DNA from: the human T2T-CHM13v2.0 reference genome, Homo sapiens
Assembly (NCBI RefSeq): GCF_009914755.1
Contig: NC_060927.1
Length of the DNA stretch: 64,000 bases
Direction: 5' to 3' (one strand)
Position 1 is the first letter of the stretch. Every line of letters starts with the position of its first letter. Position numbers and translations under genes: made by a program. The notes under the pieces are model-generated. The model made no database searches, was not told the DNA's origin, and saw nothing but the letters and a program-made list of their open reading frames with translations. Shown here in pieces: positions 19,505 through 22,958 of the stretch.

Positions 19505-20707
19505 ACAGCAGGTTACACATTTTTCTCAAGCTCATATGGAATGTTCACCAAGAAAGACCACATACTGGGCTAGAAAACATACCTTAAAAATGTAAATGTA
19601 TAAAAAATTCGTACAATGTCTCCTCTCAGACCGTAATAGAATTAAACTAAAAATCAATAACAGTAGCTAGAAAATCCTCAAATACTTGGAGATTAAATTA
19701 CACTCTTCTAAATAACACATGGATCAAAGAAAAAATCTCAAGTGAAATTGAAAAAGATCTTGTGGTGCTGGGATAATTGGTTATTCATATGCAGAAGAAT
19801 GAAGCTGGACCCTTCCCTATCACCATACACAAAAATTAAGTCACGACGGATTAAAGACTTAAATGTAAGACATGAAACAATAAAAATCCTAGGAAACACC
19901 CTATGAAAATATTTTATATGGAAATACCCCATAAAAACATAGGAAATACTCTTTTTAATACTGGCCTTGGCAAATAATTTATTACTATGTCCTCAAAGGC
20001 AATTGCAACGTAATCAAAAATTGACAAGTGGGACCTAATTAAACTAAAGAGCTTCTGCACAGCAAGATAAATGATCAAGGGCATAAACTTACAGAATGGG
20101 AGAAAATACTTGCAAAGTAAGTATCCAATAAATGTCTAAGATTCAGAATCTATAAGGAACTTAAATCAACAATCAAAAACATAACCCTGATAGGAAGTGG
20201 GCAAATGACATGAACAGACACTTTTCAAAAGAAGATATACGAGTGGCCAAAAAACATATGAAAAAATGCTCATCATCACTAATCACCAGAGAAATGCAAA
20301 TCAAAACCACAATGAGATACCATCTCACACCAGTAAGAATGGCTTTTGTTAAAAAGTAAAAAAATAACAGATGATGGCAAGGTTGTGGAGTAAAGGAAAC
20401 AGGTATACACTGTTGGTGGGAATGTAAATTAGTACAGGCATTGTGAAAAGCATTTTGGAGATTTCCCAAAGAAGGAAAAGCTGAACTCCATTTAACCCAG
20501 CAATCCCATTACTAGGTACATAACCAGAGGAAAATAAAGCATTCTGCCAAAAACACATATGCACCCATATGTTCACCACAGTATTATTCACAATAGCAAA
20601 GATATGAAGTCCACCCAGGTGCCCATTAATGGGAGACTGGGTAAAGAAAATGTGGTACATATATACCATGAAATACTCTGCAACCATGAAAAAGATGAAA
20701 TCATGGT

Positions 20708-20973
20708 GCACTTTGGGAGGCCGAGGTGGGCAGATCACGAGGTCAGGAGATCGAGACCATACTGGCTAACACGGTGAAACCCTGTCTCTACAAAAAATAC
20801 AAAAAAAAATTAGCTGGCCGTGGTGGCGGGTGCCTGTAGTCCCAGCTACTCGGGAGGCTGAGGCAGGAGAATGGCGTGAACCTGGGAGGCAGAGCTTGCA
20901 ATCAGCCGAGACCGCACCACTGCACTCCAGCCTGGGTGACAGAGTGAGACTCCATCTCAAAAAAAAAAAAAAA
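20708..20973 (+). mobile_element. AluY, 5'-truncated, without its own TSD
   Basis: Starts at gcactttgggagg; Y diagnostics present; A-tail 20959-20973 runs directly into the inverted L1. Confidence 0.95.
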
Positions 20974-22958
20974 GTCTCCCATTATTATTGTGTGGGAGTC
21001 TAAGTCTCTTTGTAGGTCACTCAGGACTTGCTTTATGAATCTGGGTGCTCCTGTATTGGGTGCATATATATTTAGGATAGTTAGCTCTTCTTGTTGAATT
21101 GATCCCTTTACCATTATGTAATGGCCTTCTTTGTCTCTTTTGATCTTTGTTGGTTTAAAGTCTGTTTTATCAGAGACTAGGATTGCAACCCCTGCCTTTT
21201 TTTTGTTTTCCATTTGCTTGGTAGATCTTCCTCCATCCCTTTATTTTGAGCCTATGTGTGTCTCTGCATGTGAGATGGGTTTCCTGAATACAGCACACTG
21301 ATGGGTCTTGACTCTTTATCCAACTTGCCAGTCTGTGTCTTTTAATTGGAGCATTTAGCCCATTTACATTTAAAGTTAATATTGTTATGTGTGTATTTGG
21401 TCCTGTCATTATGATGTTAGCTGGTTATTTTGCTCGTTAGTTGATGCAGTTTCTTCCTAGCCCTGATGGTCTTTACATTTTAGCATGTTTTTGCAGTGGC
21501 TGGTACCAGTTGTTCCTTTCCATGTTTAGTGCTTCCTTCAGGAGCTCTTTTAGGGCAGGCCTGGTGGTGACAAAATCTCTCAGCATTTGCTTGTCTGTAA
21601 AGGATTTTATTTCTCCTTCACTTATGAAGCTTAGTTTGGCTGGATATGAAATTCTGGGTTGAAAATTCTTTTCTTTAAGAATGTTGAATATTGGCCCCCA
21701 CTATCTTCTGGCTTGTAGAGTTTCTGTGGAGAGATCAGCTGTTAGTCTGATGGGCTTCCCTTTGTGGGTAACCCGACCTTTCTCTCTGGCTGCCCTTAAC
21801 ATTTTTTCCTTCATTTCAACTTTGGTGACTCTGACAATTATGTGTCTTGGAGTTGCTCTTCTCGAGGAGTATCTTTGTGCCGTTCTCTGTATTTCCTGAA
21901 TCTGAATGTTGGCTTGCCTTGCTAGATTGGGGAAGTTCTTCTGGATAATATCCTGCAGAGTGTTTTCCAACTTGGTTCCATTCTCCCTGTCACTTTCAGG
22001 TACACCAATCAGACGTAGATTTGGTATTTTCACATAGTCCCGTATTTCTTGGAGGCTTTGTTCGTTTCTTTCTATTCTTTTTTCTCTAAACTTCCCTTCT
22101 TGCTTCATTTCATTCATTTCATCTTCCATCACTGATACCCTTTCTTCCAGTTGATCGCATCAGCTCCTGAGGTTTCTGCATTCTTCACGTAGTTCTCAAG
22201 CCTTGGCTTTCAGCTCCATCAGCTCCTTTAAGGACTTCTCTGCGTTTGTTATTCAGTTATCCATTTGTCTATTTTTTTTTCACAGTTTTTAACTTCTTTG
22301 CCATTGGTTTGAATTTCCTCCTGTAGCTCAGAGTAGTTTGATCGTCTGAAGTCTTCTTCTCTCAGCTCGTCAAAGTCATTCTCCATCTAGCTTTGTTCCG
22401 TTGCTGGTGAGGAGCTGCGTTCCTTTGGAGGAGGAGAGGCGCTCTGATTTTTAGAGTTTCCAGTTTTTCTGCTCTGTTTTTTTGCCATCTTTGTGGTTTT
22501 ATCTACTTGTCGTCTTTGATGATGGTCACGTACAGAGGGGTTTTTGGTGTGGATGTCCTTTCTGTTAGTTTTCCTTCTAACGGACAGGACCCTCAGCTGC
22601 AGGTCTGTTGGAGTTGGAGTTTGCTAGAGGTCCACTCCAGACCCTGTTTGCCTGGGTATCAGCAGCGGTGGCTGCAGAACAGCGGTGGCTGTAGAACAGT
22701 GGATCTTGGTGAACTGCAAATGCTGCTGCCTGATCGTTCCTCTGGAAGTTTTGTCTCAGAGGAGTACCTGGCCATGTGAGGTGTCAGTCTGCCCCTACTG
22801 GGGGGTGCCTCCCAGTTAGGCTGCTCGGGGGTCAAGGACTCACTTGAGGAGGCAATCTGCCCGTTCTCAGATTTCCAGCTGCATGCTGGGAGAACCACTA
22901 GTCTCTTCAAAGCTGTCAGACAGGGAAATTTAAGTCTTCAGAGGTTACTGCTGTCTTT
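20974..22958 (-). mobile_element. Inverted 5' segment of L1PA3/L1PA4 (partial 5'UTR, disrupted ORF1, ORF2 endonuclease N-terminus)
   Basis: ORF1p peptide (..NLRLIGVPESDRENGTKLENTLQDIIQ..) and ORF2p start MTGPNTHITILTLNVNGLNAPIKRHRL on the minus strand. Confidence 0.96.

What the first reader, a model, noticed from the sequence alone, without database searches (positions are those of the whole stretch)
20701..20990. TSD-less AluY joined at an L1-endonuclease site, with ~1.9 kb of L1 missing
Seen: the Alu A-tail runs into AAAGTCTCCCATT, the reverse complement of L1 ..ATGGGAGACTTT(AA). That position in the L1 consensus reads TT|AAAG, an L1 endonuclease target. No copy of aaagtctccc precedes the Alu, whose 5' end sits 1 nt after the L1's 5' TSD. 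The inverted piece stops in the EN domain (approx. L1 nt 2400) and the forward piece starts at IKYLGIQ (approx. nt 4300). In simple twin priming these positions are usually nearly adjacent. Inference, two models: (A) a later Alu insertion deleted ~1.9 kb and happened to end at the TSD edge; (B) the nascent strand ending ..GACTTT primed on an Alu RNA tail during the same event (serial template switch). The junction at the TSD edge mildly favours B.
Basis: partly seen in the sequence, partly recalled or inferred. Interest (0 to 1): 0.7.

Follow-up and report, generated by a model that had tools for sequence, protein, structure and literature searches.

The report
Alu capping an inverted L1 insertion
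A shortened Alu repeat sits exactly between the target-site duplication and the inverted arm of an old L1 insertion in a CNTN3 intron, most likely captured in the same retrotransposition event, which makes it a tidy example of a recently catalogued kind of Alu/L1 chimera rather than something new.

Summary
One pair of target-site duplications (18/19 nt) encloses five parts:
- a 5'-truncated AluY-like element lacking its first 33 nt
- a 1,988-bp inverted L1PA piece
- a 1.72-kb forward L1PA piece
- a ~300-bp non-L1 tail whose parent lies on chr1
- a poly(A) tail

The Alu A-tail abuts AAAGTCTCCC. The Alu has no TSD of its own and starts 1 nt after the L1's left TSD. Measured on full-length copies, 1,854-1,861 bp of L1 are missing.

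Three new results:
- At least five other loci carry canonical insertions with 15-16-bp TSDs at exactly this L1 site, so it is an ordinary, reused endonuclease target.
- Private non-CpG divergence is the same for the Alu (6/209, 2.9%), the forward L1 (47/1,643, 2.9%) and the tail (2.7% per lineage).
- Alu/LINE-1 chimeras bounded by one TSD pair are already published (452 loci). Some rows show the same Alu / inverted L1 / forward L1 order; this locus is not listed.

My odds: a single compound event about 0.7 in all (template switch to Alu RNA 0.5), a later Alu insertion with a 1.86-kb deletion 0.25. Primate orthologues would decide; I could not reach them. Interest is modest.

The parts
20689..20706 (+). 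Left target-site duplication of the whole composite (AAAAAGATGAAATCATGG), part of an older + strand host L1
   Evidence: family D6. The host L1 reads straight on after the right copy (D2/D3).
20707..20707 (+). One extra nucleotide (T) between the TSD and the Alu. There is no microhomology at this junction.
   Evidence: The alignment to other Alus starts at 20708.
20708..20970 (+). 5'-truncated AluY-like element, starting at Alu nt 34, with an A-tail of about 12 A (20959-20970)
   Evidence: Best genomic Alu matches are 91-93% identical.
20971..22958 (-). Inverted L1PA piece, 1,988 bp, running from the ORF2 endonuclease region (...IIMGDF) back into the 5' UTR. Its outer end is the TTT|AA site.
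   Evidence: best copies are 97-98% identical.
22959..22959 (.). Inversion junction, one unassigned base. This junction is unique in the genome.
   Evidence: In one search, none of the other 39 scored places (of 40 scored, from 2,730 candidates) spans it.
22960..24679 (+). Forward L1PA piece, from ORF2 IKYLGIQ to the 3' UTR end with a short A7 run
24680..24982 (+). Non-L1 3' tail. Bases 24712-24982 match chr1:147115425-147115684 and end about 15 nt after AATAAA. It is either a 3' transduction or a captured RNA 3' end.
   Evidence: 14 mismatches in 258 aligned bases.
24981..24992 (+). Terminal poly(A), 12 A, overlapping the start of the right TSD
24988..25006 (+). Right target-site duplication (AAAAAGAATGAAATCATGG)
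   Evidence: D6

Best explanation
The whole 4.3-kb block was laid down in one L1-driven retrotransposition event about 15-25 million years ago. That age is my inference from about 2.9% non-CpG divergence.

Proposed steps:
1. ORF2p nicked the bottom strand at CATG|AAAAAG in an old host L1.
2. It primed on the poly(A) of an L1 RNA that carried about 300 nt of chr1-derived 3' sequence, and copied that RNA down to the IKYLGIQ region.
3. An inverted L1 cDNA covering the 5' UTR to the endonuclease region was made and copied back, giving a sense-strand 3' end ...GGGAGACTTT.
4. That T-ended 3' end paired with the A-tail of an Alu RNA. ORF2p jumped templates and copied the Alu to nt 34.
5. The Alu cDNA was attached to the target's top-strand overhang like any 5'-truncated Alu, with one non-templated base.

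On this reading the 1.86 kb are the part of the inverted cDNA that was never copied. The Alu has no TSD because it never had a target of its own.

Shown: the anatomy, the single TSD pair, the equal ages, and the absence of an Alu TSD. Inferred: the order of steps, the template jump, and how the uncopied top-strand remainder was removed.
For: The Alu 5' end lies 1 nt from a complete 18/19-nt TSD, and the host L1 is continuous across the site.

A later deletion would have to stop within a few bases of that edge over a 1.86-kb span.

Equal ages:
- Alu: 6/209 private non-CpG changes, 2.87%, 95% CI 1.05-6.25%, measured against 29 copies.
- Forward L1: 47/1,643, 2.86%, against the 14 of 29 copies that covered at least 90%.
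- Last 759 bp of the forward L1: 21/739, against 29 copies.
- Tail versus chr1: 14/258, 2.7% per lineage.
- Fisher test, Alu versus L1: p = 1.0.

The gap is about a hundred times the usual one. In 1,703 somatic 5'-inverted L1s, median internal deletions were 14.5 bp and duplications 22 bp (passages of bioRxiv 10.1101/2024.08.27.596794).

Law & Burns 2026 (PMC13174262) report 452 Alu/LINE-1 chimeras bounded by TSDs, with the Alu mostly in sense orientation (section 12). Rows of their Table S4 show Alu(sense) / inverted L1 / forward L1, for example chr3:18653734, chr2:114905479 and chr3:1756395.

ORF2p copies DNA and RNA templates, jumps templates and adds non-templated bases in vitro (passages of PMC10830420).

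5'-truncated Alus depend only weakly on microhomology at the 5' junction (passages of PMC2912911).
Against: The junction is a canonical TTT|AA endonuclease site, used by at least five other canonical insertions into finished L1 DNA. Only 2 of 22 T-runs of 3 or more in the relevant L1 interval are followed by AA. A pure A-tail/T-run annealing model therefore hits such a site by luck about 1 time in 10.

The Alu age estimate rests on 6 substitutions, so the Alu could be as young as about a third of the L1's age.

In plain twin priming the inverted cDNA is attached to the TSD, so an extra removal or heteroduplex-resolution step is needed.

The locus is not in the published chimera table. Its chr3 rows jump from 41.4 Mb to 79.3 Mb. 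That absence may simply reflect the non-L1 tail upsetting TSD detection.

No orthologue was examined.
Confidence: 0.5

Rival explanations
1. Two events. An ordinary twin-primed L1 was inserted first, with an inverted arm about 3.85 kb long. Later an Alu RNP nicked the L1 sense strand at TTT|AA and reverse-transcribed an Alu. The 5'-truncated cDNA was then joined 1.86 kb upstream, deleting the outer part of the inverted arm (Alu retrotransposition-mediated deletion).
For: The 3' junction is a textbook endonuclease site reused by at least five canonical insertions. The Alu has no TSD and is 5'-truncated. Such deletions are an established class: Callinan et al. 2005, seen only as a reference-list entry, with details recalled. 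It also restores the near-adjacency expected of twin priming.
Against: The upstream breakpoint would have to fall within a few bases of the L1/TSD boundary, leaving an intact 18/19-nt TSD, over 1,860 bp. On a uniform assumption that is well under 1%. A kilobase-scale deletion is, from recall, in the upper tail of reported sizes. The Alu is not measurably younger than the L1.
Confidence: 0.25
2. One event, but the Alu was already inside the template. An L1 copy that had earlier received an antisense Alu at this site was transcribed, and the twin primer landed inside that Alu. One cDNA therefore reads Alu(nt 34 to tail)-A(n)-inverted L1.
For: It explains both the endonuclease-site junction and the TSD edge. 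L1 copies with an antisense Alu at exactly this site exist. The inverted and forward pieces best match the same full-length elements: 3 elements are shared between the top-40 lists.
Against: The template would have a disrupted ORF2 and need mobilisation in trans. Only 28 of 605 (4.6%) 5'-inverted L1s lack microhomology at the 5' junction, and extra nucleotides are rare there; here there is none and one extra T. The 1.86-kb gap stays unexplained. No other copy of the inversion junction or of such a source is in the genome. The window's Alu shares none of its six private non-CpG changes with the chrX Alu (compared by eye).
Confidence: 0.1
3. One event with RNA priming. The A-tail 3' end of an Alu RNA annealed to the UUU at this point of the L1 RNA and was extended by ORF2p, giving an Alu-RNA::inverted-L1-cDNA hybrid. 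The first-strand cDNA then jumped onto that hybrid and copied it back through the Alu.
For: It needs no adjacency, no removal of a top-strand loop and no separate target. ORF2p extends RNA primers on RNA templates at a reduced but significant rate, and extends an Alu-like substrate (PMC10830420 passages).
Against: No direct evidence supports it. Like the template-switch model, it hits a TTT|AA site by luck (2 of 22 T-runs). I saw it described for genomic insertions nowhere in the papers opened.
Confidence: 0.1

Closest known systems
Alu/LINE-1 chimeric insertions (Law & Burns, Cell Genomics 2026, PMC13174262)
   Same: The Alu lies on the 5' side of a 5'-truncated L1 and is in sense orientation to the 3' L1 piece. 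One TSD pair encloses both. The nick site TG/AAAA is of a kind their table scores as an EN motif (row chr4:146183751). Alu and L1 are of matching age. Several table rows have an inverted L1 piece between the Alu and the forward L1.
   Different: Here the Alu is 5'-truncated, whereas most of theirs are full length. The inverted arm is long (2 kb). The composite carries a non-L1 3' tail. Contemporaneous arrival has not been shown by a species alignment. The locus is not in their Table S4.
Alu retrotransposition-mediated deletion (Callinan et al. 2005; reference-list entry seen, content recalled)
   Same: A TSD-less, 5'-truncated Alu whose A-tail sits at an L1 endonuclease site, with neighbouring sequence apparently missing.
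   Different: No pre-insertion allele is known. The apparent deletion ends exactly at another element's TSD edge, which that mechanism does not predict.
Twin-primed (5'-inverted) L1 insertion (Ostertag & Kazazian 2001, paper not held; described in PMC2912911 and bioRxiv 10.1101/2024.08.27.596794)
   Same: An inverted 5' piece and a forward 3' piece lie inside one TSD pair of typical length.
   Different: The gap between the two pieces is 1.86 kb, against medians of 14.5-22 bp. The target does not join the inverted L1 directly.
L1 3' transduction
   Same: Non-L1 sequence lies between the L1 3' end and the terminal poly(A), inside the TSDs. A single parental match elsewhere ends at a poly(A) signal.
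   Different: No L1PA lies upstream at the parental chr1 locus in this assembly. A lost source allele and capture of another RNA's 3' end cannot be told apart.

Membership tests
Alu/LINE-1 chimeric insertion | Alu directly on the 5' side of an L1 insertion | tested here: met
   The Alu (20708-20970) abuts the inverted L1 piece at 20971.
Alu/LINE-1 chimeric insertion | One TSD pair of at least 7 bp bounds the whole composite, and the Alu has none of its own | tested here: met
   TSD 18/19 nt. No direct copy of the 15-mer lies upstream at up to 3 mismatches.
Alu/LINE-1 chimeric insertion | Both parts arrive together in a multi-species alignment | not testable with these tools
   No primate genomes or alignments are held. 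Only a proxy was obtained: equal private divergence.
Alu/LINE-1 chimeric insertion | Alu and L1 subfamilies active at the same time | tested here: inconclusive
   Non-CpG divergence is 2.87% against 2.86%, but the Alu CI is 1.05-6.25%. Subfamily names were not assigned by any tool.
Alu retrotransposition-mediated deletion | Alu without TSDs, with an endonuclease-type site at the A-tail | tested here: met
Alu retrotransposition-mediated deletion | An ancestral or orthologous allele that holds the deleted sequence | not testable with these tools
   The loss is inferred only from L1 coordinates.
Twin-primed 5'-inverted L1 | Inverted 5' piece and forward 3' piece of one L1 within one TSD pair | tested here: met
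   Both pieces best match the same full-length elements.
Twin-primed 5'-inverted L1 | Outer end of the inverted piece nearly adjacent, in L1 coordinates, to the start of the forward piece | tested here: not met
   The gap is 1,854-1,861 bp, against medians of 14.5 and 22 bp.
Twin-primed 5'-inverted L1 | Microhomology between the target and the inverted L1 at the 5' junction (95% of cases) | tested here: not met
   An Alu intervenes. The TSD/Alu junction has no microhomology and one extra T (norm).
L1 3' transduction | Unique flank between the L1 end and the poly(A), with a parental locus ending at a poly(A) signal | tested here: met
L1 3' transduction | Source L1 immediately upstream at the parental locus | tested here: not met
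   No L1PA lies within about 10 kb upstream on chr1 in this assembly; only an old L1 3' end is there.

The most novel reading that the evidence does not exclude
The inverted L1 arm was not made by twin priming from the target at all. Instead, the poly(A) 3' end of an Alu RNA primed reverse transcription on an internal U-tract of the L1 RNA. The resulting Alu-RNA/L1-cDNA hybrid was then copied into the growing first strand. RNA-primed cDNA synthesis by ORF2p would then leave heritable genomic footprints, and it would explain Alu / inverted L1 / L1 composites whose L1 pieces are not adjacent.
Probability: 0.1. Interest if true: 0.7.

Novelty: new member of a known kind. Interest (0 to 1): 0.35.

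Why it matters
The locus is intronic (CNTN3, between the exons at 6720-6837 and 38764-38939), and nothing suggests a function.

Its value is as a well-preserved footprint. One TSD pair encloses an Alu, an inverted L1, a forward L1 and a foreign 3' tail, so up to three or four templates may have been used in one integration.

If orthologues show all-or-none presence, it becomes a clean natural example of ORF2p switching onto an Alu RNA from a strand that was copying DNA. It would also be a case where the missing L1 interval records how far that copying had gone.

If they show stepwise arrival, it is an unusually large Alu-mediated deletion with a coincidental endpoint.

Tried and rejected
(1) Retrocopy of a pre-existing composite locus. 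Rejected: the inversion junction is unique among the 40 scored places of 2,730 candidates. The tail's only long match, on chr1, has no L1PA or Alu/L1 structure nearby.

(2) Inverted piece taken from an older, unrelated L1 copy or antisense transcript. Not supported: the inverted piece is 97-98% identical to its best copies, against 96% for the forward piece. Both lists share full-length elements.

(3) Window Alu descended from the chrX Alu-bearing L1. Rejected: the two share no private non-CpG change (by eye), and that locus lacks the tail.

(4) Residue numbering of the two L1 break points against solved ORF2p structures. The step was dropped. The gap was measured on genomic full-length copies instead, so absolute L1 and ORF2p coordinates remain unverified.

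(5) Private-divergence dating of the inverted piece against many copies. Not done, because searches returned no loci. Only identity percentages are available for that piece.

(6) A count of how unusual the site is. There are 5 canonical insertions against 7,594 intact sites. This is an ordinary good target, not an exceptional hot spot.

(7) Are the chr15 and chr9 Alu-bearing L1s copies of one Alu-bearing progenitor? One 82%-identical alignment spans the whole 4.1 kb, which does not tell common descent from independent insertion.

(8) Earlier notes of this scan were not open.

(9) The Ostertag & Kazazian 2001 paper is not held.

Full report
**Anatomy**

The window is an intron of CNTN3. An old + strand L1 (about 20100-20706) stops at ...AAAAAGATGAAATCATGG. 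It resumes at 25007, after a second copy of that sequence (AAAAAGAATGAAATCATGG, ending at 25006) (families D2, D3, D6). Everything between lies inside one 18/19-nt target-site duplication:
- one extra T (20707)
- an Alu on the + strand, from Alu nt 34 to its end (20708-20958)
- an A-run (20959-20973)
- a 1,988-bp L1 piece in reverse orientation (20971-22958)
- one junction base
- a forward L1 piece (22960-24679)
- a non-L1 stretch (24680-24982)
- A12, then the right TSD

The Alu's truncation by 33 nt was measured against a full-length Alu on chrX.

Every element checks out.
- The A-run abuts GTCTCCCATTAT, which reverse-complements L1 sense ...AATAATGGGAGACTTT|AACACC.
- No direct copy of AAAGTCTCCCATTAT, at up to 3 mismatches, lies upstream of the Alu (3 matches in the window, 3.66 expected by chance).
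- The inverted piece ends at ...IIMGDF and the forward one begins at IKYLGIQ.
- On two full-length genomic copies the interval between these points is 1,854 and 1,861 bp. Coordinates of three further elements give 1,854-1,860 bp.

Absolute L1 coordinates were not verified.

**Is the junction an endonuclease site?**

Yes. The intact site GTGTTAAAGTCTCCCAYTAT occurs 7,594 times. A search for at least 6 A followed by GTCTCCCAYTAT gave 9 places:
- One is the window itself.
- Five are canonical insertions into L1 at exactly this point, in the same orientation, each flanked by 15-16-bp TSDs beginning AAAG. Four are Alus (chrX, chr15, chr9 and a 5'-truncated one on chr1). One is a non-Alu poly(A) retrocopy on chr5.
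- Three (chr13, chr20, chr21) are not in L1 context.

The site is therefore a normal, reused target. The window's Alu differs from the others only in lacking the upstream L1 and the TSD.

**Ages**

I counted positions where the window copy differs from the column majority of its closest genomic relatives.
- Alu: 6 non-CpG changes in 209 sites (2.87%, CI 1.05-6.25%) and 9 of 38 CpG sites, against 29 copies.
- Forward L1: 47 in 1,643 (2.86%) and 4 of 32 CpG sites, against the 14 of 29 copies that covered at least 90%.
- Last 759 bp of the forward L1: 21 in 739, after dropping 2 edge positions and 20 positions misaligned at a 3' UTR deletion.
- 3' tail versus its chr1 parent: 14 of 258 aligned bases (2.7% per lineage), plus a 13-bp duplication.

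All parts are the same age within error. The Alu estimate is coarse.

**The 3' tail**

Bases 24712-24982 have one long match in the genome, chr1:147115425-147115684. The match ends about 15 nt after an AATAAA, where the window's poly(A) starts. That chr1 locus has only an old L1 3' end upstream and no L1PA within about 10 kb. This is either a 3' transduction from a source allele that was lost, or a captured RNA 3' end.

**What was excluded**

- The inversion junction is unique, so the block is not a copy of an extant composite.
- The inverted piece is not older than the forward one (97-98% against 96% to best copies), and both match the same full-length elements.

**Weighing the models**

For a later Alu insertion with deletion:
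- It explains the endonuclease site, the missing TSD and the truncation.
- Its upstream breakpoint must land within a few bases of the L1/TSD boundary over 1.86 kb.
- The Alu shows no sign of being younger.

For a single compound event:
- It explains the edge for free.
- Twin-priming gaps are normally tens of bases (1,703 events, medians 14.5 and 22 bp), so the 1.86 kb needs a special cause. A strand that stopped copying the inverted cDNA at ...GACTTT and jumped onto an Alu A-tail provides one.
- ORF2p does copy DNA and RNA templates, jump templates, add non-templated bases and extend RNA primers in vitro.
- Alu/LINE-1 chimeras within one TSD pair are now catalogued (452). Several rows of that table have the order Alu(sense) / inverted L1 / forward L1, one with a similarly large gap.

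Against the switch model:
- Only 2 of the 22 T-runs in the interval are TTT|AA sites.
- In plain twin priming the inverted cDNA is attached to the TSD, so an extra resolution step is required.

For a template that already carried the Alu:
- It fits the site and the edge.
- It conflicts with the lack of 5' microhomology (4.6% of inverted L1s), with the large gap, and with the need for mobilisation in trans.

**Verdict**

- Observation: confirmed.
- A single-event chimera is the best reading: about 0.7 over all single-event variants, and 0.5 for the template-switch form.
- A later Alu with deletion: 0.25.
- This is a new member of a published kind, not listed in that paper's table, and of modest interest.
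- Primate orthologues would settle it.

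Noticed in passing
window 24680-24992; L002 1501-1760 (chr1:147115425-147115684): The L1 carries a ~300-bp non-L1 3' tail ending at an AATAAA signal. Its only long genomic match is on chr1, where no L1PA lies upstream. So it is either a transduction from a lost source allele or a captured foreign RNA 3' end.
   Followed up: partly
window 24761-24786: There is a tandem duplication of 13 bp (CTCATGGTTAGAA, twice) in the window's tail. 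The chr1 parent has one copy (D11).
   Followed up: no
window 20627-20638 and 20973-20984: A perfect 12-nt inverted match links the host L1, about 50 nt left of the TSD, to the first bases of the inverted L1 piece. Random 12-mers have such a partner within 400 nt in 14 of 20,000 trials. I found no mechanism that uses it.
   Followed up: partly
L005 (chrX), L007 (chr15), L008 (chr9), L006 (chr1), L071 (chr5): Five other L1 copies carry a retro-insertion at exactly the same TTT|AA site, each with a 15-16-bp TSD beginning AAAG. Four are Alus and one is a non-Alu poly(A) retrocopy.
   Followed up: yes
L072 (chr13), L073 (chr20), L074 (chr21): Three exact 18-mer matches to A6-GTCTCCCAYTAT lie outside any L1 context. 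That is more than I would expect by chance for an 18-mer. Their origin is unexplained.
   Followed up: no
window 22663-22696: A 17-bp tandem duplication (CAGCGGTGGCTGCAGAA / ...TGTAGAA) lies in the 5' UTR part of the inverted L1 piece (D16).
   Followed up: no
window about 24640-24660: The forward L1's 3' UTR lacks a short stretch present in the other copies. Alignments to 39 genomic copies stop at query position 759-762 of 781, and the bases beyond misalign.
   Followed up: partly
PMC13174262 Table S4, rows chr3:18653734, chr2:114905479, chr3:1756395, chr1:15142997: These published Alu/L1 chimera rows have the same order of parts: Alu in sense, then an inverted L1 fragment, then the forward L1. 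In the chr3:18653734 row the inverted fragment (consensus 3658-3858) also appears to lie far, about 1.6 kb by my estimate from the row's lengths, from the 676-bp forward piece.
   Followed up: partly
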